From the sequence record ON528735: 64,000 bases of DNA; one strand, written 5' to 3'. The translations under genes and the position numbers were made by a program. The notes under the pieces were generated by a model that searched no databases, was not told where the DNA came from, and saw only the letters and a program-made list of their open reading frames with translations. This document shows, in pieces, positions 23,534 to 62,174 of this stretch; position 1 is the first letter of the stretch; each line of letters starts with the position of its first letter. Origin of the DNA: Shigella phage ESh25.

Positions 23534-23950
23534 TTAAATGTAAATATTTTTGCCGTAATACTTATACCAGTGTGGCTTCATTAAAATTTTTTCATCGAGT
23601 CGTTGTTGACTCAACTTAATAGCTGATTTGCATGGATTATAATCATTTTTCCATTCTACTGGAATATCGCTGATGTCAGGAACTTCAGTATCTTTTATAC
23701 TGAACCCGCGTTTTAAGCATTCCGTTATAATGTCCGATTGACGCTTTCGCAAAAATTCTAACTTATCGTAAAAGAAAGTAACATGACCAGAACCTAAAAT
23801 AAATTTAGAAGATATTTTAAAATCTTTAACGCGCTTACCGTTTGCCACATGCTTACGAACTATACCAAAAACACGCGGCAATTCACGGTATTCTGCGATT
23901 AAATGTTGATCAGCAAGTTCAGATACTAAAGTCAAATTAATACGAGTCAT
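23534..23950 (-). CDS. denV: endonuclease V (pyrimidine dimer DNA glycosylase)
   Basis: 138 aa; recalled near-identity to T4 endo V. Confidence 0.95.
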
Positions 23951-23974
23951 TTTATCCCTCCAAGTAACTGTGAA

Positions 23975-24005
23975 TATACTATCACAATTCTAGGAGAAAG
24001 TAAAC
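23975..24005 (-). promoter_or_regulatory. T4-type early promoter (-35 GTTTAC, -10 TAGTAT)
   Basis: GTTTAC at 24005-24000, TAGTAT at 23980-23975, in the 60-bp e-denV gap. Confidence 0.5.
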
Positions 24006-24009
24006 AACT

Positions 24010-24540
<531 letters not shown>

Positions 24541-25837: not shown

Positions 25838-26232
25838 CGTGATTCCTTAACAAATTTCATAATTTCGTTAAATTCATGCATATCTAATTTAAGCTGGTGT
25901 TCCTTTTTAATCTTTTTACACTGAGCTTTCCATTCACGTACACGTTTACGATAATGCCTTCCTTGATACCAATATCCTACCCAATTTACAGGTACCAATA
26001 AAAATGGAACTACTAATGGAAGAATTAATACTAACAAAAATATTACGCCAGATTCAATATCAGTCATAAAGTCTATAACCATTCCAACAACCAATAGAAT
26101 TACAAATGATATAGCTGTCACAGGACCTATTAATACATCAGTAGGAATTAGCTGACGCTTTAGTTCATACTTCACAGGTTTACTTGGAAGGTATAGTGAT
26201 GGCTTTGACATATTCTCTACATTCCTTAACAA
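25819..26232 (-). CDS. membrane protein (137 aa; e.4 position)
   Basis: Hydrophobic helices; basic C-terminus. Confidence 0.55.
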   Translation of the reverse strand: MLRNVENMSKPSLYLPSKPVKYELKRQLIPTDVLIGPVTAISFVILLVVGMVIDFMTDIESGVIFLLVLILPLVVPFLLVPVNWVGYWYQGRHYRKRVREWKAQCKKIKKEHQLKLDMHEFNEIMKFVKESRCKSQN

Positions 26233-26785
26233 ATTTTTCTAATAATAAATCGCTTTCAAAATTAGGATTTTCCACGAATTTATCAAAAAGATCATCAACG
26301 ATAGTTAAGATATTCTTTTTATTAAGAATACGCTTATTTTCATATTTTGTTTCAGAGTCAACTATAAGAGTAAAGAAATATTTCTTTCCCTGAAATTTTA
26401 CCGTAGTATCAATATAGAACAAATTTGACTTTTGTAAATTACGTTTAAACCATGCGTCACTTAAACTGTAAACGCCAAGATAATCATAATCGTCGTTTAA
26501 ATAACATACTGTCCATTCAGGAGAAATGAAATCAGTAAATTCAACATCAAAATCACATGTTAATGAATGAATTGATTCAATACTGTTAATAAGTATTCCA
26601 GGACGTATTAAAGACTTTTTACCTTTATAAAATCCAGAAAGACTTTCATCAGTTTCATATGAAGAACCCCAATAATAATTACGTCCTTCTGCCATACGTT
26701 TAAGAGCATTTAATAATTGGTCTGGAACATCAACTTGTCTTTGGAATTCTTCAAACATTGAATTGAAATCACTTTGCATTTTCAT
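26180..26785 (-). CDS. hypothetical protein (201 aa; e.5 position)
   Basis: Intact ORF. Confidence 0.6.
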   Translation of the reverse strand: MKMQSDFNSMFEEFQRQVDVPDQLLNALKRMAEGRNYYWGSSYETDESLSGFYKGKKSLIRPGILINSIESIHSLTCDFDVEFTDFISPEWTVCYLNDDYDYLGVYSLSDAWFKRNLQKSNLFYIDTTVKFQGKKYFFTLIVDSETKYENKRILNKKNILTIVDDLFDKFVENPNFESDLLLEKFVKECREYVKAITIPSK

Positions 26786-26827: not shown

Positions 26828-27421
26828 TTATTTCAGAGAATTAATGTATTCCTGAACATCAGCAGAGGTAGTTTCAACCCCAGAAATATTGCCATTAAAG
26901 GTTTCAACTCGGGCAAGAGTATCTTCAATATCAACCTTAGTCAGCGCTGCAATTTCAACTACATCATCAGCAGTACTAATTCCGAGGGCATTAGCGGCGC
27001 GAGTTTCACGGATATATTCCAATTTAACTGCAAGTTCTTGGCGAGCATCATCTAACTCAACTACTTTCTTGGCGATTTCAATTCGCATTTCAGCATAACC
27101 ATCAGCTTTAGTAGTCAACTGCTCAGCTGTTCGACGATATAGTAAACCGAGTTTAGCATGCATTGTTACATCTTGACCTTCCGAAAGAAGCTTGCGAATT
27201 TCACGCTCTTTTGATTCGGCCTGCTTATTCTTTTCGACAATAAGTTCACGAATACGCTTTTCTTCATTAATAGATTTAACAGAAGCAGTTTTTAGATCTT
27301 TAATCTTATCAAGTAGTTTTGCTGCTGCAGCAGTATACTGTTCTTCAACAGATAGATTTTTAGCCATAGCAGAACCAAGTTTAGTGCGAATAAACTCAAC
27401 AATTTTCTTCAGTGTGTTCAT
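26828..27421 (-). CDS. coiled-coil protein, PspA/IM30-like (197 aa; e.6 position)
   Basis: Long heptad-rich helical sequence; GC tetraloop hairpin downstream at 26807-26820. Confidence 0.55.
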
Positions 27422-28206: not shown

Positions 28207-28336
28207 AGTTTTGTGAAAAAATTTTTAAAAAGTTTTAGGGAATTCTAGGGTCAGGAGGGGCAATTAAAAGATAGGATAATATATTATAAAGGGTAGAAAC
28301 TAAATGATGCCTAGAGAGGCCCGGAAAGGCCTAGAT

Positions 28337-28367
28337 ACCAAAAAGCCCCAACCTTTTGGTCGGGGCT
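28337..28367 (-). terminator. rho-independent terminator (GCCCCGACC-AAAA-GGTTGGGGC plus TTTTT)
   Basis: 9-bp GC-rich stem and T run on minus strand; near-identical copy at 28893-28921. Confidence 0.6.
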
Positions 28368-28374
28368 AAGAATG

Positions 28375-28848
28375 TTATTTGATTTGTTTAGCAGACCAAA
28401 TGTGGTCTTTAATAATTTTTTGGATGTCTTCAACATACTCTAGGTCATGAGCATGTGGGTTATCTTTGAAACTATAAGCACGAGCTAGCTTTTGGCCTTC
28501 AGTTTTGATTACTAAAAGCTCTTTAAGGATAGCTTCATATTTAGAGATAATTCCTTTAACAATATTTTTTTCTTGTGTAGTTTTAGGGTCTGCTTTAGGA
28601 GCAGGTTTACCCGAAGCCTTTGCAAAAGCAGCGCCAGTAGCAACCAAACTTTTCCAGGCCATACTAACTGCATTCCCTGTAAATCCTTCGGCTTTCATAT
28701 CACGAGCAAATTGGAATCGTGATTCATCGGAAGCATCTTTATAGGAATATTTACCCGCGGCAATGGCTGCTTTTGCGACAGCTTGAATTTCGGTGCTAGA
28801 TGCTTCATTTAACACCGCTTCATTTAAAAATTGAGCATATGATTTCAT
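28375..28848 (-). CDS. putative head internal protein with capsid-targeting-like N-terminus (MKSYAQFLNEA)
   Basis: N-terminus resembles the T4 IP capsid-targeting sequence MKTYQEFIAE; late promoter TATAAATA upstream; flanked by duplicated terminators. Confidence 0.5.
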   Translation of the reverse strand: MKSYAQFLNEAVLNEASSTEIQAVAKAAIAAGKYSYKDASDESRFQFARDMKAEGFTGNAVSMAWKSLVATGAAFAKASGKPAPKADPKTTQEKNIVKGIISKYEAILKELLVIKTEGQKLARAYSFKDNPHAHDLEYVEDIQKIIKDHIWSAKQIK

Positions 28849-28884
28849 CTTATTTCCTGTTTTAATTCGTGGTTTTAATATACT

Positions 28885-28892
28885 TATTTATA
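28885..28892 (-). promoter_or_regulatory. T4 late promoter (TATAAATA)
   Basis: Exact TATAAATA on minus strand about 35 nt upstream of the ATG at 28848. Confidence 0.5.
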
Positions 28893-28921
28893 CCAAAAAG
28901 CCCCAACCTTTCGGTCGGGGC
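28893..28921 (-). terminator. rho-independent terminator ending the tRNA/stable-RNA transcript
   Basis: GCCCCGACC-GAAA-GGTTGGGGC hairpin plus TTTTT on minus strand. Confidence 0.6.
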
Positions 28922-28924
28922 TAA

Positions 28925-29238
28925 GCCTTGCGGCAACCTTGTCGGGGTTCCACCTGCTAAGGCAAGTGTTTGTACGAAACGCCGGGATTCGAACCCGGTT
29001 ATTAAGCAGTTGACGCTACTTAATATTTTTAAAAGGCCATATCTCGACCATATCCGAACGTTCCGTCAAAAACGCTACTCGGCTTACGGCAAAGATATTT
29101 CCTCGAATCGATAATTCGGTGCGCCGTTTCTGCTGTGATATAAGGGGACATTAACAAAACATAAAGATTTATTAATGCCAGTCCTTAAACAGGGAACATC
29201 AGTCCGACGACTTACCGGTAGCGACCCGGCTTCTTGTT
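28925..29238 (-). ncRNA. structured non-coding region; includes a tRNA-like element (T-arm and acceptor stem, aberrant body), possible species-1/2-type stable RNA
   Basis: No plausible ORF; CCGGG-TTCGAAT-CCCGG T-arm at 28990-28974 with pairing CGGAACG/CGTTTCG acceptor-like stem but no canonical anticodon arm. Confidence 0.3.
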
Positions 29239-29314
29239 TGGTCGAGGCAGTAGGAATCGAACCTACGACCTAGGACTTAGAAGGTCCTTGCTCTTCCTTC
29301 TGAGCTATGCCTCG
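29239..29314 (-). tRNA. tRNA-Arg: tRNA-Arg (anticodon TCT)
   Basis: Cloverleaf folded by hand: 7-bp acceptor, anticodon loop CTTCTAA, T-loop TTCGATT, encoded CCA. Confidence 0.9.
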
Positions 29315-29318
29315 GATT

Positions 29319-29393
29319 TGGCGGACGTGATAGGATTCGAACCTATAACCAATCGCTTAACAGGCGATCGCTCTGCCATTGAGCTACACATCC
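29319..29393 (-). tRNA. tRNA-Asn: tRNA-Asn (anticodon GTT)
   Basis: Cloverleaf: acceptor GGATGTG/CACGTCC, anticodon loop CTGTTAA, T-loop TTCGAAT, CCA encoded. Confidence 0.85.
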
Positions 29394-29397
29394 AAAT

Positions 29398-29484
29398 TGG
29401 TGGGGAGTGGTGGAGTCGAACCACCCGAGTCGCAATGACAATGGATTTACAGTCCACACCGCTACCTCTACGGGATAACTCCCC
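29398..29484 (-). tRNA. tRNA-Tyr: tRNA-Tyr (anticodon GTA), long variable arm
   Basis: Cloverleaf: acceptor GGGGAGT/ACTCCCC, anticodon loop CTGTAAA, variable arm GTCATTGCGAC, discriminator A, CCA encoded. Confidence 0.85.
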
Positions 29485-29493
29485 AAATTAATT

Positions 29494-29568
29494 TGGTGGC
29501 CCTGGGTGGAATTGAACCACCATCTGGCGATTATGAGTCGCTTGCTTGAACCTTCCAGCTACAGGGCC
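29494..29568 (-). tRNA. tRNA-Ile: tRNA-Ile (anticodon CAT, lysidine-type) or Met
   Basis: Cloverleaf: acceptor GGCCCTG/CAGGGCC, anticodon loop CTCATAA; T4 tRNA-Ile carries a CAU-type anticodon. Confidence 0.85.
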
Positions 29569-29569
29569 T

Positions 29570-29646
29570 TGGTGCTGATTGACGGAATCGAACCGCCGAC
29601 CTTCTCATTACAAGTGAGTTGCTCTACCTACTGAGCTAAATCAGCA
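29570..29646 (-). tRNA. tRNA-Thr: tRNA-Thr (anticodon TGT)
   Basis: Cloverleaf: acceptor TGCTGAT/ATCAGCA, anticodon loop CTTGTAA, T-loop TTCGATT. Confidence 0.9.
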
Positions 29647-29650
29647 AAAC

Positions 29651-29740
29651 TGGCGGAGGCGATAGGATTTGAACCTATGAGTCGCCGGAGCGACTGCCGG
29701 TTTTCAAGACCGGTGCATTAAACCACTCTGCCACGCCTCC
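29651..29740 (-). tRNA. tRNA-Ser: tRNA-Ser (anticodon TGA), long variable arm
   Basis: Cloverleaf: acceptor GGAGGCG/CGCCTCC, anticodon loop CTTGAAA, long variable arm. Confidence 0.9.
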
Positions 29741-29746
29741 AAATAT

Positions 29747-30355
29747 TTATATATTGTTAATTTGATTTAGAATTCTTTTTGCTTGAGTATGACTTACGCC
29801 AATATGCTTAGCATATTTAGATAATTCACCCCGCTTAGAAAAATCATATAATTTAGAAATTTCTATTCTTCTTTTTCTTTCATCCGCAGAAACTTTTGCT
29901 TCGTTTGCTTTTGCTATTTTACGTTTAGCTTCTTGAGAATGAGTTTTACCAGCAAAGCCATTTTTCATTAATCCATTTGAAGACCATCCTTTTAATTTTC
30001 CGTTAGAATGTGCCTTTTTAACACCCAATGAAATTAATTCGCGTTGCTGATCTGTCATAGGATAATTATTTATATGATCCCATCCACCTTCACCTCCAAG
30101 TTTTAAATTATACACATCTGGTCTATTTAAAAACTCTTCTGTGACAATATTTTTCTCGGCTTCAAGCATAGATTCTTTATCATCAAAATACTCTAATATT
30201 TCTTTAGAAAAATTTTCTATGCCATATTTATCTTGGGCTCTTTTTAATAATTTACCAGAACCCATATATCCATCATCTAAATTTTCGGTAGAATGCACAC
30301 CAATATAAATTTTATTATTAATTTTATTTGTTATTTTATAAAGATAAAAATGCAT
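29747..30355 (-). CDS. segB: GIY-YIG homing endonuclease (SegB-like) embedded in the tRNA array
   Basis: GIY-YIG motif (YLYKITN...IYIGVHS) near N-terminus; likely start ATG 30355 with AGGGA Shine-Dalgarno (longer ORF runs to 30397). Confidence 0.8.
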   Translation of the reverse strand: MHFYLYKITNKINNKIYIGVHSTENLDDGYMGSGKLLKRAQDKYGIENFSKEILEYFDDKESMLEAEKNIVTEEFLNRPDVYNLKLGGEGGWDHINNYPMTDQQRELISLGVKKAHSNGKLKGWSSNGLMKNGFAGKTHSQEAKRKIAKANEAKVSADERKRRIEISKLYDFSKRGELSKYAKHIGVSHTQAKRILNQINNI

Positions 30356-30400
30356 ATCAGTCCCTAATAAAGAACTGAGCGTCTCACGACGAGTCATAAA

Positions 30401-30475
<75 letters not shown>

Positions 30476-30479
30476 AAAT

Positions 30480-30566
30480 TTGGTGCGAGAAGTGGGACTC
30501 GAACCCACAAGGAAATCATTCCGCAGCATTTTAAGTGCTGTGCCTTTACCAATTTGACCATTCTCG
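30480..30566 (-). tRNA. tRNA-Leu: tRNA-Leu (anticodon TAA), long variable arm
   Basis: Cloverleaf: acceptor GCGAGAA/TTCTCGC, anticodon loop CTTAAAA, T-loop TTCGAGT, CCA encoded. Confidence 0.9.
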
Positions 30567-30567
30567 C

Positions 30568-30640
30568 GCTGGGAATAAAGGACTCGAACCTTTGCATCTA
30601 GCAGTCAAAGTGCTATGCCTTACCAACTTGGCTAATTCCC
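30568..30640 (-). tRNA. tRNA-Gln: tRNA-Gln (anticodon TTG), CCA not encoded, 1 nt from tRNA-Leu (dimeric precursor)
   Basis: Cloverleaf: acceptor TGGGAAT/ATTCCCA, anticodon loop CTTTGAC; 3' end abuts tRNA-Leu 5' end. Confidence 0.9.
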
Positions 30641-30738
30641 AATTATTAACAAAGGCTCTCAAACAAGAACCCTTGATGATAGAGGGTATTAATCAGTGCG
30701 GTATGAGTTAATAATAACAAATAGTTCTTAAAGCATAT

Positions 30739-31596: not shown

Positions 31597-31636
31597 TTTA
31601 TTCTCCTCAGTAGTTGATAGGGTAATAGTATCACTA

Positions 31637-31666
31637 CTAAAACCCCGTGTAAACAACTTTGTGAAA
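31637..31666 (-). promoter_or_regulatory. T4-type early promoter (copy 1 of duplicated cassette)
   Basis: GTTTAC at 31666-31661, TACTAT at 31642-31637; about 35 nt upstream identical to the copy at 31956-32010. Confidence 0.55.
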
Positions 31667-31924
31667 TTATTTTAAATCTTCTAATCGTTTCTTCATCTTA
31701 GAACCATTTTTAGCGATTTCTCCTGCGTCAGAGCATAATGCTAAAAGTGCTTTAACTTTAGTTTGGTCTCCTTTAAAAGACGAAGGATCGACTGCAGCAG
31801 CAAGTTCTTTAATACGAGAGAAAAGACGCTCAGCTTCAGCTAAAGCCATTCCAAGCTTTACTTCCATACCATGAGAAGATTCAGTGATAATAGTTTCTGT
31901 AGCAAACTCTTTATAAGTTTTCAT
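31667..31924 (-). CDS. putative head internal protein with capsid-targeting-like N-terminus (MKTYKEFATE)
   Basis: N-terminus closely resembles the T4 IP capsid-targeting sequence MKTYQEFIAE; 85 aa; sits between duplicated promoter cassettes. Confidence 0.55.
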   Translation of the reverse strand: MKTYKEFATETIITESSHGMEVKLGMALAEAERLFSRIKELAAAVDPSSFKGDQTKVKALLALCSDAGEIAKNGSKMKKRLEDLK

Positions 31925-31955
31925 TTTTATTTTCCTAATTAATTTTGATGAGGTA

Positions 31956-31985
31956 ATAGTATCACTACCTCATCAGTGTGTAAAC
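31956..31985 (-). promoter_or_regulatory. T4-type early promoter (copy 2 of duplicated cassette)
   Basis: GTTTAC at 31985-31980, TACTAT at 31961-31956; -10 lies in the loop of a 9-bp inverted repeat GATGAGGTA/TACCTCATC. Confidence 0.55.
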
Positions 31986-31997
31986 AACTTTGTGAAA

Positions 31998-32682
<685 letters not shown>

Positions 32683-55984: not shown

Positions 55985-57964
55985 ATGACTTTATTATCTC
56001 CGGGCATTGAGCTCAAAGAAACTACGGTTCAAAGCACCGTGGTTAATAACTCTACTGGTACAGCAGCTTTGGCCGGTAAATTCCAGTGGGGTCCTGCTTT
56101 TCAGATTAAACAGGTTACAAATGAAGTAGATTTAGTTAATACTTTTGGTCAACCAACCGCTGAAACTGCTGACTATTTTATGTCTGCGATGAATTTCTTA
56201 CAGTACGGAAATGACTTACGAGTAGTTCGTGCTGTTGATAGAGATACCGCTAAAAACTCATCTCCGATTGCTGGTAATATTGAATACACAATTTCTACCC
56301 CAGGTAGTAACTATGCAGTTGGAGATAAAATCACGGTCAAATATGTTTCAGATGATATTGAAACTGAAGGTAAAATTACTGAAGTAGACGCAGATGGAAA
56401 AATTAAGAAAATTAATATTCCTACTGCAAAAATTATCGCTAAAGCTAAAGAAGTCGGTGAATATCCGGAATTAGGTTCTAACTGGACTGCGGAAATTTCT
56501 TCGTCTTCCTCTGGTTTAGCTGCAGTAATAACTCTTGGAAAAATTATTACTGATTCTGGTATTTTATTAGCTGAAATTGAAAATGCTGAAGCTGCTATGA
56601 CAGCGGTTGACTTTCAAGCAAATCTCGAAAAATACGGAATTCCAGGAGTAGTAGCTCTTTATCCAGGCGAATTAGGCGATAAAATTGAAATTGAAATTGT
56701 ATCTAAAGCTGACTATGCAAAAGGAGCTTCTGCATTACTCCCAATTTATCCAGGTGGTGGTACTCGTGCATCTACTGCTAAAGCAGTGTTTGGATATGGA
56801 CCACAAACTGATTCACAGTACGCTATTATAGTTCGTCGTAATGATGCTATTGTTCAAAGTGTTGTTCTTTCAACTAAGCGTGGTGAAAAAGATATTTACG
56901 ATAGTAACATCTATATCGATGACTTTTTCGCAAAAGGTGGTTCAGAATATATTTTTGCAACTGCACAAAACTGGCCAGAAGGCTTCTCTGGAATTTTAAC
57001 TCTTTCTGGTGGATTATCATCAAATGCTGAAGTAACAGCAGGAGATTTGATGGAAGCTTGGGACTTCTTTGCTGACCGTGAATCTGTAGATGTTCAACTG
57101 TTTATTGCGGGTTCTTGTGCCGGTGAATCTTTAGAAACAGCATCTACTGTCCAAAAACACGTCGTTTCAATTGGGGATGCTCGTCAAGATTGCTTAGTAT
57201 TGTGCTCACCACCACGTGAAACTGTAGTTGGAATTCCTGTAACTCGCGCTGTTGATAACTTAGTCAATTGGAGAACCGCAACAGGTTCATACACTGATAA
57301 TAACTTTAATATCAGTTCAACCTACGCAGCAATTGATGGTAACTATAAGTATCAGTATGACAAATATAATGATGTGAATCGTTGGGTTCCATTAGCAGCT
57401 GATATTGCTGGTTTATGCGCAAGAACTGATAACGTTTCTCATACTTGGATGTCTCCAGCTGGTTATAATCGTGGCCAAATTTTGAACGTTATTAAACTGG
57501 CTATTGAAACTCGCCAAGCTCAGCGCGACCGTTTATACCAAGAAGCTATTAACCCGGTAACTGGCACAGGTGGCGATGGTTACGTATTGTATGGTGATAA
57601 AACAGCTACTTCTGTTCCTTCTCCGTTTGATCGTATTAACGTTCGTCGTCTGTTTAATATGTTGAAAACTAATATCGGACGTAGTTCAAAATATCGTTTG
57701 TTCGAATTAAACAACGCGTTTACTCGTTCATCATTCCGCACAGAAACTGCCCAGTACTTACAGGGAATTAAAGCTCTCGGTGGAATTTATGAATATCGTG
57801 TAGTTTGCGATACAACAAATAACACTCCGTCAGTAATTGATAGAAATGAGTTTGTTGCAACATTCTACATCCAACCGGCTCGTAGTATAAATTATATCCA
57901 ACTTAATTTCGTCGCAACTGCTACTGGTGCAGATTTTGATGAGTTAACTGGTCTTGCAGGTTAA
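55985..57964 (+). CDS. 18: gp18, tail sheath protein
   Basis: 659 aa; T4 gene order and size. Confidence 0.97.
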   Translation: MTLLSPGIELKETTVQSTVVNNSTGTAALAGKFQWGPAFQIKQVTNEVDLVNTFGQPTAETADYFMSAMNFLQYGNDLRVVRAVDRDTAKNSSPIAGNIEYTISTPGSNYAVGDKITVKYVSDDIETEGKITEVDADGKIKKINIPTAKIIAKAKEVGEYPELGSNWTAEISSSSSGLAAVITLGKIITDSGILLAEIENAEAAMTAVDFQANLEKYGIPGVVALYPGELGDKIEIEIVSKADYAKGASALLPIYPGGGTRASTAKAVFGYGPQTDSQYAIIVRRNDAIVQSVVLSTKRGEKDIYDSNIYIDDFFAKGGSEYIFATAQNWPEGFSGILTLSGGLSSNAEVTAGDLMEAWDFFADRESVDVQLFIAGSCAGESLETASTVQKHVVSIGDARQDCLVLCSPPRETVVGIPVTRAVDNLVNWRTATGSYTDNNFNISSTYAAIDGNYKYQYDKYNDVNRWVPLAADIAGLCARTDNVSHTWMSPAGYNRGQILNVIKLAIETRQAQRDRLYQEAINPVTGTGGDGYVLYGDKTATSVPSPFDRINVRRLFNMLKTNIGRSSKYRLFELNNAFTRSSFRTETAQYLQGIKALGGIYEYRVVCDTTNNTPSVIDRNEFVATFYIQPARSINYIQLNFVATATGADFDELTGLAG

Positions 57965-57970
57965 TTGATT

Positions 57971-58609
57971 ATGGGGCTTCGGCCCCTATTCTCGAGGAAA
58001 CAAGTGATTATTTCTAAGTTTGTTACAATAAAACCAAGAAATCATTCAAAAATGTGGTCGACAATTCTGGGATATAAAGTATCATATCATGATACAGTAT
58101 CTGTTCCAATAGAATTAATGCCAAAGAATAGTAATAAAATAGTTGACGCTAAATGTGATTTGTGTGGTACTAAATTTAGTAGAAGCATTCAACTTTTAAA
58201 TAGAACACCCACACATGCGTGTAGAAAATGTAGCATTAAACAAGTTGCTATTAAAAATTCGGAAGTTCAATCTGGAATAAGCAGACCATGGCAAAGAGGT
58301 GATAAACATCCTCGATGGACTGGCAAAAGAAAAGAGTTTGCATTATATGCTAGTAGAGTTCATTCTATAACTAAGTCAGCTAAAATAAGAAAAATCTGGT
58401 CAAAATGGCCAAATGCTGATAAAATAGGAGTGTGTGGCGTAGAAGGTGCTTACCAACTCGATCATAAAGTATCTATCAAATATGGATTTGATAATTTAAT
58501 TCCGCCGGAAATTATAGCAAGCGTAAAAAATTTAGAAATAATCACTTGGGAATCTAACCGAGAAAAGTCAAAAAGAAATAGCGTAGATCTTTGGGATTTA
58601 CTAGAATGA
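57971..58609 (+). CDS. putative HNH-family homing endonuclease inserted between genes 18 and 19 (start uncertain, alternative ATG 58052)
   Basis: C-x2-C...C-x2-C zinc-finger cysteines plus HNH-like QLDHKVSIKYGF...N...W.SN motif; basic protein. Confidence 0.55.
   Translation: MGLRPLFSRKQVIISKFVTIKPRNHSKMWSTILGYKVSYHDTVSVPIELMPKNSNKIVDAKCDLCGTKFSRSIQLLNRTPTHACRKCSIKQVAIKNSEVQSGISRPWQRGDKHPRWTGKRKEFALYASRVHSITKSAKIRKIWSKWPNADKIGVCGVEGAYQLDHKVSIKYGFDNLIPPEIIASVKNLEIITWESNREKSKRNSVDLWDLLE
57973..57986 (+). terminator. GC tetraloop hairpin after gene 18 (GGGGC-TTCG-GCCCC)
   Basis: Perfect 5-bp GC stem with TTCG loop; same element in mRNA sense at 26820-26807 on minus strand. Confidence 0.45.
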
Positions 58610-58716: not shown

Positions 58717-59208
58717 ATGTTTGTAGATGATGTAACACGAGCGTTTGAATCTGGTGATTTTGCTCGACCTAACTTATTCCAAGTAGAAATTTCTTATCTT
58801 GGACAAAATTTTACGTTTCAATGTAAAGCCACTGCTTTACCAGCTGGTATTGTAGAAAAAATTCCAGTCGGTTTTATGAACCGTAAAATTAACGTAGCAG
58901 GTGATCGTACATTCGATGACTGGACTGTTACAGTAATGAACGATGAGGCACATGATGCTCGCCAGAAGTTCGTTGATTGGCAAAGCATTGCTGCGGGGCA
59001 AGGAAACGAAATTACTGGTGGAAAACCTGCAGAGTATAAAAAGAGCGCTATCGTTCGTCAATATGCTCGTGACGCTAAAACAGTAACAAAAGAAATTGAA
59101 ATTAAAGGTCTGTGGCCTACTAACGTGGGTGAACTTCAATTAGATTGGGATTCAAACAATGAAATCCAAACCTTTGAAGTAACTCTCGCTCTCGATTATT
59201 GGGAATAA
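58717..59208 (+). CDS. 19: gp19, tail tube protein
   Basis: 163 aa; T4 gene order and size. Confidence 0.97.
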   Translation: MFVDDVTRAFESGDFARPNLFQVEISYLGQNFTFQCKATALPAGIVEKIPVGFMNRKINVAGDRTFDDWTVTVMNDEAHDARQKFVDWQSIAAGQGNEITGGKPAEYKKSAIVRQYARDAKTVTKEIEIKGLWPTNVGELQLDWDSNNEIQTFEVTLALDYWE

Positions 59209-61111: not shown

Positions 61112-61536
61112 TGCTTCTGATCCCTGAAACTCATGAATTAGTTCTCGAGAATGTCGAAGCACTTATTCCTGAAGCACAGGGTCGCTTTGACGAATTGTCT
61201 TCTGCTTTAAATAAAGACGATATAAATACAATTGTCGAGAATATGCTTGATGATGAAACTGATTTAGCGGTTGCATTAGCTTCTATTAATGAAAATATGC
61301 CGTTAAATGAATTTATCGTTAAACATGTTTCTGCCCGTGGTGAAATTACTCGCACTAAAGATCGCAAAACCCGCGAACGTAATGCATTTCAAACTACCGG
61401 GTTGTCTAAAGCAAAACGTAGACAAATTGCTCGTAAAGCTACCAAAACGAAGATTGCCAATCCAGCAGGTCAATCTCGTGCTCAGCGTAAGCGTAAAAAA
61501 GCTCTTAAACGCCGTAAAGCATTAGGATTAAGCTAA
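61111..61536 (+). CDS. 68: gp68, prohead core protein
   Basis: 141 aa; T4 gene order. Confidence 0.9.
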
Positions 61537-62174
61537 TGAATGAACCCCAATTACTAATTGAAACTTGGGGTCAACCTGGCGAAATTATTGATGGCGTACC
61601 AATGCTTGAATCTCATGATGGAAAAGACTTAGGTTTAAAACCGGGTTTATACATCGAAGGAATATTCATGCAAGCGGAAGTCGTCAATAGAAATAAACGT
61701 CTTTATCCAAAACGTATATTAGAAAAAGCGGTAAAAGACTATATTAATGAGCAAGTTTTAACTAAACAAGCTCTCGGAGAATTAAATCATCCTCCACGCG
61801 CTAATGTTGACCCGATGCAAGCCGCTATCATTATAGAAGATATGTGGTGGAAAGGAAATGACGTATACGGACGAGCTCGTGTTATTGAAGGTGACCACGG
61901 TCCTGGAGATAAATTAGCAGCTAATATTCGTGCCGGATGGATTCCAGGAGTTTCTTCTCGTGGATTAGGTTCATTGACTGACACAAATAAAGGTTATCGT
62001 ATCGTAAACGAAGGATTCAAATTAACTGTAGGTGTTGATGCAGTATGGGGTCCAAGTGCTCCAGATGCATGGGTAACTCCTAAGGAAATTACCGAATCAC
62101 AGACGGCGGAAGCCGATACAAGTGCCGATGACGCCTATATGGCTCTCGCAGAGGCCATGAAAAAAGCGTTATAA
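61536..62174 (+). CDS. 21: gp21, prohead core protease
   Basis: 212 aa; T4 gene order and size. Confidence 0.95.
   Translation: MNEPQLLIETWGQPGEIIDGVPMLESHDGKDLGLKPGLYIEGIFMQAEVVNRNKRLYPKRILEKAVKDYINEQVLTKQALGELNHPPRANVDPMQAAIIIEDMWWKGNDVYGRARVIEGDHGPGDKLAANIRAGWIPGVSSRGLGSLTDTNKGYRIVNEGFKLTVGVDAVWGPSAPDAWVTPKEITESQTAEADTSADDAYMALAEAMKKAL

What the first reader, a model, noticed from the sequence alone, without database searches (positions are those of the whole stretch)
28337..28921. Late-promoter-driven protein with capsid-targeting-like N-terminus in a cassette flanked by duplicated terminators
The 157-aa ORF starts MKSYAQFLNEA, resembling the T4 capsid-targeting sequence MKTYQEFIAE cleaved by gp21 protease. 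It has its own TATAAATA late promoter although it lies in the early region, and it is bracketed by two near-identical about 34-nt repeats (TACCAAAAAGCCCCAACCTTT[CT]GGTCGGGGCTAAG), each a terminator hairpin. This is the signature of a swappable internal-protein cassette, a candidate injected anti-restriction protein.
Basis: partly seen in the sequence, partly recalled or inferred. Interest (0 to 1): 0.6.

Follow-up and report, generated by a model that had tools for sequence, protein, structure and literature searches.

The report
Unannotated T4-type internal-protein gene cassette
A small late gene in a T4-like phage carries the address tag that T4 uses to load proteins into its head, and sits in a slot where related phages hold this gene, a different tagged gene, both or neither, so it is probably one more injected accessory protein of a known kind, with an unknown target.

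Summary
The window is a Tequatrovirus, 98.8% identical to RB18 at this locus. ORF 28375-28848 (-) encodes 157 aa starting MKSYAQFLNE|AVLNE|A. It keeps all four mapped determinants of the T4 capsid-targeting sequence: Y4, F7, L8 and E10. TATAAATA lies 36 nt upstream. A 36-nt terminator repeat (35/36 identical) brackets the gene, and T4 has one copy of that terminator and no gene.

The slot between e.8 and rnaC is modular. It is empty in T4, T2 and PST. It holds this gene in at least 386 phage records and an unrelated 187-aa gene with the same leader in 165. Some phages carry both in tandem. The layout terminator, late promoter, tagged gene, terminator recurs in four Tevenvirinae genera. dN/dS is 0.05-0.16.

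A 97%-identical homologue co-purified with fD1 virions, which is weak evidence. The Bas37 homologue is non-essential and showed no phenotype in the hosts tested. No fold or family match exists.

Best reading: a predicted internal head protein in a third IP locus that uses a late-promoter/terminator module. Packaging, processing, injection and anti-restriction activity are inferred, not shown. It is a new member of a known kind.

The parts
28890..28925 (-). Upstream copy of the 36-nt repeat. It is an intrinsic terminator (stem-loop 28899-28922, then TTTTTGG) that ends the tRNA/rnaD/rnaC transcription unit. Its tail GGTAT supplies the first bases of the late promoter.
   Evidence: identical to the single T4 copy
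28885..28892 (-). T4-type late promoter box TATAAATA, immediately after the terminator T run and 36 nt upstream of the ATG
   Evidence: An exact TATAAATA lies 38-48 nt upstream of the homologous genes in RB18, fD1, UAB_60, Bas35/37/44 and the Tegunavirus locus, and directly after the terminator in Jiaodavirus KpV477. Mosigvirus has AATAAATA.
28853..28858 (-). Shine-Dalgarno AGGAAA, 4 nt before the ATG
   Evidence: read from the sequence
28375..28848 (-). CDS of 157 aa (17.3 kDa, pI 9.2), family phrog_2280, called 'RB32ORF132c' in RB18. It is a predicted internal head protein precursor.
   Evidence: dN/dS 0.05-0.16
28804..28848 (-). Codons 1-15: capsid-targeting-like propeptide MKSYAQFLNE|AVLNE| with two L-x-E gp21-type cleavage motifs (after E10 and E15). 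The predicted mature N-terminus is ASSTEIQ.
   Evidence: determinants from the review PMC9026906
28615..28803 (-). Residues 16-78: N-terminal domain of three helices in the model (H18-30, H41-53, H59-71; pLDDT 80-91) with the family signature AGKYSYKD..ESRFQF.RDMKAEGF...AWKS. It is the only part shared with the Klebsiella and Yersinia phage homologues.
28588..28614 (-). Residues 79-87: Pro/Lys-rich low-confidence linker (SGKPAPKAD)
   Evidence: pLDDT about 50
28378..28587 (-). Residues 88-157: antiparallel helical hairpin (H88-124, H133-155). A different C-domain replaces it in the Tegunavirus and Jiaodavirus homologues.
28335..28370 (-). Downstream copy of the 36-nt repeat, the terminator of the cassette (stem-loop 28344-28367). 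Its 3' tail GGTATCTAGGCC continues as the T4 empty-site flank.
28926..29238 (-). Context: rnaC/rnaD-homologous stable-RNA region upstream of the cassette
   Evidence: alignment to T4 and T4 annotation; no Rfam family matches
61536..62174 (+). Functional partner: the gp21 prohead protease (Peptidase_S77), next to the gp22 scaffold, gp67 and gp68 core proteins

Best explanation
ORF157 encodes a T4-type internal head protein.

Proposed mechanism:
1. Transcription of the upstream tRNA/rnaC unit stops at the hairpin at 28899-28922. [Sequence-level evidence only.]
2. Late in infection, gp55-RNA polymerase starts at the TATAAATA that follows directly, so the gene is expressed only while heads are being built. 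[Inferred from the consensus and its conservation.]
3. The 10-residue leader MKSYAQFLNE, with aromatic residues at positions 4 and 7, docks the precursor onto the gp22 scaffolding core. [Inferred by analogy with IPIII.]
4. The gp21 protease cuts after L-N-E at residue 10 and/or 15 and frees a basic two-domain helical protein of about 15.5 kDa inside the head. [Inferred.]
5. That protein is ejected with the DNA. [Inferred.]
6. By analogy with the four characterised proteins of this class (Ip1, Ip2 and Ip3 against GmrSD variants, Bas37_0260 against McrBC), its most likely job is to neutralise a strain-specific host defence against modified DNA. The target is unknown. [Inferred; the weakest step.]

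The gene is one module of an array between e.8 and rnaC. Each module is a late promoter, a leader-tagged gene and a terminator. Recombination between the near-identical terminator tails (GGGGCTTTTTGGTAT) adds, removes or swaps modules without disturbing the neighbours. [The polymorphism is shown; the recombination mechanism is inferred from the junction sequences.]
For: - Leader: all four experimentally mapped CTS determinants are present (targeting residues 4 and 7, processing residues 8 and 10, gp21 motif L/I-x-E; review read; sequence). The leader is kept as M..[YF]..F[LV].E in every relative found among 1.84 billion representative proteins, while the mature part falls below 25% identity or is replaced.
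- Chance: 1e-4 such N-termini are expected in the window.
- Machinery: gp21, gp22, gp67 and gp68 are encoded in the same window.
- Promoter and terminators. The order terminator, TATAAATA, leader-tagged gene, terminator recurs in Tequatrovirus, Tegunavirus and Jiaodavirus, with AATAAATA in Mosigvirus.
- Swappable slot: T4 has one terminator and no gene. WL-3 has instead a 187-aa gene whose only similarity to ORF157 is the 11-aa leader. UAB_60 and Bas37 carry both in tandem. The 187-aa gene is in 165 records and ORF157-type genes in 511.
- Real gene: dN/dS 0.05-0.16 and native base composition.
- Virion association: the fD1 homologue g140 was detected by LC-MS/MS in purified virions at the strict threshold.
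- Dispensable accessory gene: Bas37_0244 tolerated insertions at 29 of 34 sites. Frameshifted copies exist (P0006, P0008, P0009; KpV477).
- Precedent for function: Ip1-3 inhibit GmrSD variants (PMC12373910) and Bas37_0260 inhibits McrBC (bioRxiv 10.1101/2025.11.20.689424).
Against: - There is no direct evidence of packaging inside the head, of N-terminal processing or of ejection.
- The fD1 list of particle-associated proteins also contains DenV, lysozyme, NudE, e.5 and e.6. It covers 113 of 277 gene products at the strict threshold and 137 (49%) with weaker calls included, so it barely discriminates.
- Transposon disruption of the Bas37 homologue gave log2FC of -0.11, -0.30 and -0.14 (adjusted p = 1) in the three K-12-versus-clinical-isolate comparisons read. 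It was also fully tolerated on K-12 BW25113, which carries McrA, McrBC and Mrr.
- Seven other ip genes (ip4-10) tested against 15 GmrSD groups gave no reproducible inhibition, so carrying a CTS does not guarantee an anti-GmrSD role.
- There is no similarity to IPI*, IPII or IPIII beyond the leader, and no informative fold match.
Confidence: 0.65

Rival explanations
1. The protein is packaged, but it is not an anti-defence effector. It would be a basic internal protein that serves the virion itself, for example neutralising DNA charge or organising the DNA, or filling the core in a phage that lacks IPII and IPIII.
For: The mature protein is basic (pI 9.3-9.4, 23 K+R against 17-18 D+E). This phage has no gene at the ipII/ipIII locus, where denV abuts e, so ORF157 and the 85-aa IpV-type protein would be its only CTS proteins. 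The Bas37 homologue showed no host-specific phenotype.
Against: The gene is dispensable in Bas37 and absent from T4, T2 and PST, so it has no general structural role. Presence/absence polymorphism and swapping with an unrelated gene are typical of arms-race accessory genes. All four characterised CTS proteins of this class are restriction inhibitors.
Confidence: 0.15
2. It is a late-expressed cytoplasmic protein that is not packaged. The leader would then be a relic of recombination with ip genes or of common descent, and the protein would act in the infected cell late in the cycle.
For: No specific evidence places it inside the head, because the fD1 list is unspecific. The regulatory module differs from that of the classical ip genes.
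Against: A relic leader would not be conserved across four genera while the rest of the protein diverges or is exchanged. The alternative occupant of the slot, otherwise unrelated in sequence, carries the same leader. The L-x-E motif always sits directly before the start of the conserved domain.
Confidence: 0.12
3. It is not a functional gene: a chance ORF between two copies of a duplicated terminator.
For: All 511 GenBank records call it 'hypothetical protein' or leave it unannotated, and it has no Pfam domain.
Against: dN/dS is 0.05-0.16 with dS up to about 2. The ORF is full length in 469 records. It forms a PHROG family (3.7e-59), and peptides were detected in fD1.
Confidence: 0.01

Closest known systems
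T4 internal proteins IPI, IPII and IPIII (Ip1-3)
   Same: All have a 10-19-residue N-terminal leader with an aromatic residue at position 4, Phe at 7 and an L/I-x-E gp21 site (IPII/IPIII are MKTYQEFIAE|A; ORF157 is MKSYAQFLNE|A). All are small, non-essential, polymorphic among T-even phages, and share nothing beyond the leader.
   Different: ORF157 has no sequence or predicted-fold similarity in the mature part. It lies at a different locus, between e.8 and rnaC rather than 57B-tRNA.4 or denV-e. It is driven by TATAAATA after a terminator, whereas ipI, ipII and ipIII have sigma70-like promoter/hairpin elements and no TATAAATA. Packaging, processing and anti-GmrSD activity are experimentally shown for Ip1-3 and not for ORF157.
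Polymorphic ip cassettes of T-even phages (Ip4-Ip12 of Repoila et al. 1994; 'more than 30 variants', Comeau et al. 2007), including Bas37_0260, an inhibitor of McrBC
   Same: Alternative, unrelated leader-tagged genes occupy one slot and are bounded by repeated regulatory sequences that act as recombination linkers. The window's own ipI-locus gene (31667-31924, IpV-type) shows that classical arrangement.
   Different: The published accounts I could read speak of two IP loci. Records that do label IPs, such as PST (Krisch laboratory) and RB18, mark them only at those two loci, and RB18 names ORF157 simply 'RB32ORF132c'. I could not read Repoila 1994 or Comeau 2007, so I cannot exclude that this family was already counted among the 30 variants.
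PeSL (promoter-early stem-loop) mobile regulatory cassettes of T4-type phages (Arbiol et al. 2010; Comeau et al. 2014)
   Same: A gene is flanked by repeated promoter-plus-hairpin modules. Excision between the flanking repeats leaves one copy, and the modules keep the gene transcriptionally insulated.
   Different: A PeSL carries a strong sigma70-type early promoter. Here the hairpin is a true intrinsic terminator followed by a late promoter, and the repeat is the terminator itself.
Morons of lambdoid phages
   Same: A single accessory gene with its own promoter and terminator inserted between two conserved genes.
   Different: Morons are thought to move by illegitimate recombination and are often expressed from the prophage. 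This module sits in a virulent phage, is expressed late and is bounded by homologous linkers.

Membership tests
T4-type CTS-targeted internal head protein | N-terminal capsid-targeting sequence: Met1, aromatic residue at 4 and Phe at 7 (the targeting determinants) | tested here: met
   MKSYAQF has Y4 and F7. Both are conserved as Y/F4 and F7 in all relatives. Determinants taken from PMC9026906.
T4-type CTS-targeted internal head protein | gp21 cleavage motif L/I-x-E at the end of the leader (residues 8-10) | tested here: met
   L8-N9-E10, and a second L13-N14-E15. An L/I-x-E motif directly precedes the conserved domain in six of the eight aligned family members; the two most distant, P0010 (F-C-E) and P0005 (M-T-E), keep only the Glu.
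T4-type CTS-targeted internal head protein | The same genome encodes the prohead protease gp21 and the scaffolding core | tested here: met
   Peptidase_S77 at 61536-62174 (E = 1.5e-111), the gp22 scaffold and gp67.
T4-type CTS-targeted internal head protein | Expression at the time of head assembly | tested here: inconclusive
   TATAAATA lies 36 nt upstream and is conserved across genera. No transcript data were available.
T4-type CTS-targeted internal head protein | Physical presence inside the mature head | tested here: inconclusive
   The 97%-identical fD1 g140 was flagged as particle-associated by LC-MS/MS. The same list includes DenV, lysozyme and NudE.
T4-type CTS-targeted internal head protein | Removal of the propeptide by gp21 during maturation | not testable with these tools
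   This needs N-terminal or semi-tryptic peptide evidence, for example by re-searching PXD026812.
T4-type CTS-targeted internal head protein | Ejection into the host with the DNA | not testable with these tools
   Experimental only.
T4-type CTS-targeted internal head protein | Non-essential and polymorphic among close relatives | tested here: met
   Bas37_0244 is non-essential. The gene is absent from T4, T2 and PST, and frameshifted copies exist.
Classical ip loci (ipI locus 57B-tRNA.4; ipII/III locus denV-e) | Location in one of the two described loci, flanked by GTTTACA...GATACTAT promoter/hairpin repeats | tested here: not met
   The gene lies between e.8 and rnaC. The flanking repeat is an intrinsic terminator and the promoter is TATAAATA.
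Type IV restriction (GmrSD/McrBC) inhibitors Ip1, Ip2, Ip3 and Bas37_0260 | Homology to a known inhibitor | tested here: not met
   No BLASTP similarity beyond the leader. No PDB sequence hit, and no specific fold hit.
Type IV restriction (GmrSD/McrBC) inhibitors Ip1, Ip2, Ip3 and Bas37_0260 | Loss of the gene sensitises the phage to a defined type IV system | tested here: inconclusive
   Published transposon data show no depletion of Bas37_0244 on K-12 BW25113 (McrA, McrBC and Mrr present), in two earlier isolate comparisons or in CFE303. Bas37 carries other inhibitors, and few hosts were tested.
PeSL cassette | Strong sigma70-like early promoter combined with a stem-loop, repeated on both sides of the gene | tested here: not met
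   The stem-loop repeat is present, but no sigma70-type promoter is associated with it. The only promoter element is the late box.

The most novel reading that the evidence does not exclude
The interval between e.8 and rnaC is a third internal-protein locus of Tevenvirinae that has gone unrecognised. It would be built from late-promoter/terminator modules rather than early-promoter stem-loops. It shuffles at least two unannotated families of leader-tagged proteins (ORF157/phrog_2280 and the 187-aa family) across four genera. ORF157 would be an injected inhibitor of a host defence system not yet linked to any Ip.
Probability: 0.3. Interest if true: 0.65.

Novelty: new member of a known kind. 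Interest (0 to 1): 0.5.

Why it matters
Injected internal proteins act before any phage gene is expressed. Four of them have recently been shown to disarm type IV restriction systems with narrow specificity (Ip1-3 against GmrSD variants, Bas37_0260 against McrBC).

The published accounts I could read count two IP loci. This slot would add a third, holding two protein families that are called 'hypothetical' or left unannotated in every record listed from 511 and 165 phage genomes. That gives ready candidates for the many GmrSD-like systems that still lack a known inhibitor. T2 and T4 naturally lack both genes and can serve as test phages.

The module design also shows how a late, insulated expression unit can be exchanged by short homology without disturbing the surrounding early operon. 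That design could be reused for engineering cargo delivery by T4-like phages.

Tried and rejected
- Pfam gave only sub-threshold noise, and PHROGs gave a family of unknown function.
- A profile search of PDB sequences gave nothing.
- Foldseek against the PDB gave no hit with E < 0.5. BFVD returned only members of the same family and one distant Serratia phage PS2 protein.
- An exhaustive profile search found only 13 relatives, apparently all from T4-like phages, and no cellular homologue.
- Scanning IMG/VR for the terminator/late-promoter junction found a single contig, so it was no use for finding further cassette types.
- Repoila et al. 1994 is not held, no supplement of Comeau et al. 2014 is held, and Petrov et al. 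2010 does not mention IPs.
- Searching all papers for the leader sequences found nothing, and a search for a more specific Tequatrovirus virion proteome also found nothing.
- I considered recent foreign acquisition and rejected it, because GC and GC3 are typical of the phage.
- I considered whether the Bas37 'Essential' call for the neighbouring 187-aa gene shows a core function and left it open. Hoc, which is dispensable in T4, also has almost no insertions in that data set.

Full report
**What the window is**

The locus is 98.8% identical to Enterobacteria phage RB18 and 95-99% identical to several hundred Tequatrovirus records. Reading along the minus strand, the gene order is that of T4: 57B, an ipI-locus gene, tRNA.4 to tRNA.2, a tRNA cluster split by segB, rnaD/rnaC, then e.8, e.7, e.6 and onwards to nudE and e.

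**The observation**

- The ORF at 28375..28848 (-) encodes 157 aa beginning MKSYAQFLNEAVLNEASS.
- TATAAATA lies at 28885-28892 (-), 36 nt before the ATG, with AGGAAA as ribosome-binding site.
- A 36-nt direct repeat at 28335-28370 and 28890-28925, 35/36 identical, brackets the gene. Nothing like it occurs elsewhere in the 64 kb, and none is expected by chance.
- On the minus strand each copy is a 10-bp GC-rich hairpin with a tetraloop and a T run. Both are picked up by the terminator scan and fold at -19.5 and -21.5 kcal/mol, z about -4.
- The leader pattern MK[ST]Y..F[LI].E occurs once among 498 candidate Met-started frames, against 1e-4 expected.

**Is it a real gene?**

Yes. Pairwise dN/dS against seven homologues is 0.05-0.16, with dS up to about 2 for the Mosigvirus allele. 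The ORF is full length in 469 of 511 phage records. It belongs to PHROG 2280 at 3.7e-59. GC and GC3 are typical of the phage. Peptides of the fD1 homologue were detected by mass spectrometry.

**The leader**

According to the review of L. W. Black's work (PMC9026906), only the first 10 residues of IPIII are needed for packaging. Targeting depends mainly on residues 4 and 7 and processing on residues 8 and 10. gp21 cuts after L/I-x-E.

ORF157 has Y4, F7, L8 and E10, and a second L-N-E at residues 13-15. For comparison, T4 IPII and IPIII start MKTYQEFIAE|A. T4 IPI starts MKTFKEFTSTTTPVSTITE|A.

The family is tiny: 13 hits among 1.84 billion representative proteins. Every member keeps M..[YF]..F[LV].E. 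Examples are MKTYNEFLNE, MKSYAEFLTE, MLEYSEFLKE, MKFKEFLAE, MLKFNEFLAE, MINFSDFLNE and MKSFSSFLNE. An L/I-x-E motif directly precedes the conserved domain in six of the eight aligned members. The two most distant ones keep only the Glu.

Conservation of a cleavable leader while the mature part falls below 25% identity is what a functional targeting signal predicts. The protease gp21 (Peptidase_S77, 1.5e-111), the gp22 scaffold, gp67 and gp68 lie at 60.9-63.0 kb of the same window.

**The mature protein**

AlphaFold2 (mean pLDDT 75.6, from only eight aligned sequences) predicts four parts:
- a disordered or helical propeptide;
- a confident N-terminal domain of three helices (residues 18-71);
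- a Pro/Lys-rich linker;
- a long antiparallel helical hairpin (residues 88-155).

The mature form is about 15.5-16 kDa with pI 9.3-9.4. The N-domain carries the family signature AGKYSYKD..ESRFQF.RDMKAEGF...AWKS. In the Tegunavirus and Jiaodavirus homologues a different C-domain follows the same N-domain.

No Pfam family, PDB sequence or specific structural neighbour exists. The fold therefore says nothing about function.

**The cassette**

T4 has no gene between e.8 and rnaC, and it has one copy of the terminator. Its left flank continues as the left flank of the window's downstream copy. Its right flank continues as the right flank of the upstream copy. The difference is therefore exactly one repeat period, 555 bp: late promoter, gene and terminator.

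A spread sample of 60 of the 728 records that match the T4 empty site shows the following.

| Match type | Records in the sample | Examples |
|---|---|---|
| Empty site, single-piece match of about 505-520 bp | 7 | T4, T2, ACG-C40 |
| Split match of about 1,050-1,080 bp (the 555-bp insert) | 21 | RB32, AR1, RB68 |
| Split match of about 1,170-1,200 bp | 4 | WL-3 |
| Only the rnaC side matched | 28 | (not classified) |

In the longer class, WL-3 holds an unannotated 187-aa ORF, MKTYAEFLTE|AAKLPSE.... Its only similarity to ORF157 is the 11-residue leader. That gene occurs in 165 records.

Salmonella phage UAB_60 and the BASEL phages Bas35 and Bas37 carry both genes in tandem. The order in UAB_60 is:
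- rnaC;
- terminator 1 plus TATAAATA;
- the ORF157 homologue;
- terminator 2 (the same hairpin) followed by AATAAATA;
- the 187-aa gene;
- terminator 3 (a different stem with the same GGGCTTTTTGGTATCTAGG tail);
- e.8.

The window's downstream junction is the terminator-2 hairpin joined to the terminator-3 tail. WL-3 is terminator 1 joined to the sequence after terminator 2. T4 is terminator 1 joined to the terminator-3 tail. All four states are thus related by crossovers inside the short shared terminator tails.

**Direction of the event**

Homologues sit in the same place, downstream of the tRNA/rnaC block, in three other genera.
- Mosigvirus: Bas47, a 154-aa allele, again between two copies of a terminator that share their own stem variant.
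- Tegunavirus: fHe-Yen9-01, with a terminator and TATAAATA followed by two tandem leader-tagged genes, gp154 and gp153.
- Jiaodavirus: KpV477, with a terminator and TATAAATA followed by MKFKEFLAE..., here interrupted by a stop codon.

The arrangement is therefore old. The empty site of T4, T2 and PST is at least as likely a deletion as the window's state is an insertion.

**How it differs from the classical ip loci**

The genes checked were T4 ipI, ipII and ipIII, RB18 Ip6 and IpIV, and the window's own 85-aa IpV-type gene at 31667-31924. None has a TATAAATA upstream. They are flanked by repeated GTTTACA...GATACTAT sigma70-like promoters with embedded hairpins. These are the elements that Arbiol et al. 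attribute to Repoila et al. 1994 and call analogues of PeSLs.

ORF157 is instead insulated from upstream early and middle transcription by a true terminator and is served only by a late promoter.

The papers I could read speak of two IP loci. The Krisch-laboratory annotation of phage PST labels IpIII, IpIV, IpV and IpVI only at those loci. No listed GenBank record calls ORF157 anything but hypothetical. I could not read Repoila 1994 or Comeau 2007 ('more than 30 variants'), so earlier recognition cannot be excluded.

**Experimental data from relatives**

- Yersinia phage fD1 g140 is 97% identical. It is listed as a phage-particle-associated protein at the strict threshold in ultracentrifuge-purified virions (Skurnik et al. 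2021, PMC8309999). The same list contains DenV, lysozyme e, NudE, e.5 and e.6. It shows expression and co-purification, not an internal location.
- In the HIDEN-SEQ preprint (bioRxiv 10.1101/2025.11.20.689424), Bas37_0244 (95.5% identical) tolerated insertions at 29 of 34 sites and is called non-essential. Its log2 fold changes were -0.11, -0.30 and -0.14 (adjusted p = 1) in the three K-12-versus-clinical-isolate comparisons I read, including CFE303.
- The same study shows that Bas37_0260, a leader-tagged protein at the ipI locus, inhibits McrBC.
- Silas et al. 2025 show that Ip1, Ip2 and Ip3 each block one GmrSD variant, while ip4-10 gave no reproducible hit against 15 GmrSD groups.

**Conclusion**

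The most economical reading is that ORF157 is a late-expressed internal head protein that carries a CTS and is processed by gp21. It sits in a modular slot that exchanges such genes. Analogy makes an anti-defence role, most probably against a system that attacks modified DNA, the leading functional hypothesis. No datum yet supports that role directly, and the available knockout data are negative for the few hosts tested.

This is a new member of a known kind. The locus and its regulatory design form a modest variant on the classical ip cassettes.

Noticed in passing
window 31600-31997 (gene 31667..31924, minus strand): The ipI-locus gene is an 85-aa IpV-type internal protein (MKTYKEFATETIITE|S; phrog_3499). 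It is flanked on both sides by near-identical AATAATTTCACAAAGTTGTTTACAC...GTGATACTATTACC promoter/hairpin repeats, the classical Repoila-type cassette. It has no TATAAATA, unlike ORF157.
   Followed up: partly
window 23534-24504: This phage has no gene at the ipII/ipIII locus: denV (23534..23950) directly abuts e (24010..24504). T4 has ipII and ipIII there, and RB18, fD1 and PST have a 157-aa IpIV-type gene. Its predicted internal-protein set is therefore only the IpV-type protein plus ORF157.
   Followed up: partly
L007 575..1138 (-) (phage WL-3); L008 556..1119 (-) (UAB_60); bas37_0243: A second unannotated leader-tagged family (187 aa, MKTYAEFLTE|A) occupies the same slot in 165 phage records. 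In HIDEN-SEQ the Bas37 copy had insertions at only 1 of 48 sites and is called 'Essential', which is odd for a gene absent from T4 and from this window. Hoc also has almost no insertions in that data set, so the call may be technical.
   Followed up: partly
window 26180..26785 and 26828..27421 (minus strand; e.5 and e.6 homologues): The Bas37 orthologues (bas37_0239 and bas37_0240) are strongly depleted in one clinical-isolate comparison of the HIDEN-SEQ data (log2FC -3.6 and -6.5, adjusted p about 0). The authors built a bas37_0240 deletion. These neighbours may be conditionally essential counter-defence genes.
   Followed up: no
window 31998..32453 (minus strand): The 57B homologue next to the ipI locus matches Pfam Acb1, the anti-CBASS phosphodiesterase (E = 2.6e-60). 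The region around the ip loci is therefore an anti-defence neighbourhood.
   Followed up: partly
window 57965..58609 (plus strand): A 214-aa ORF with Cys-rich and H-N-H-like motifs lies between the tail sheath gene 18 (55985..57964) and the tail tube gene 19 (58717..59208). As far as I recall, T4 has no gene there; this was not checked. It has no Pfam match and may be a free-standing homing endonuclease.
   Followed up: partly
window 29239-30641: The tRNA set differs from that of T4. It holds Arg, Asn, Tyr, Met(CAT), Thr and Ser, then segB, then Gly, Leu and Gln. Pro is absent, and segB (GIY-YIG, 29747..30397) sits at a different position in the cluster from T4 segB.
   Followed up: no
L008 1780-1815 (UAB_60, upstream terminator): In UAB_60 the 5' arm of terminator 1 is partly duplicated (GCCCCGACCGAAGCCCCGACCGAAAGG). 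This may be a scar of slipped or unequal recombination within the terminator.
   Followed up: no
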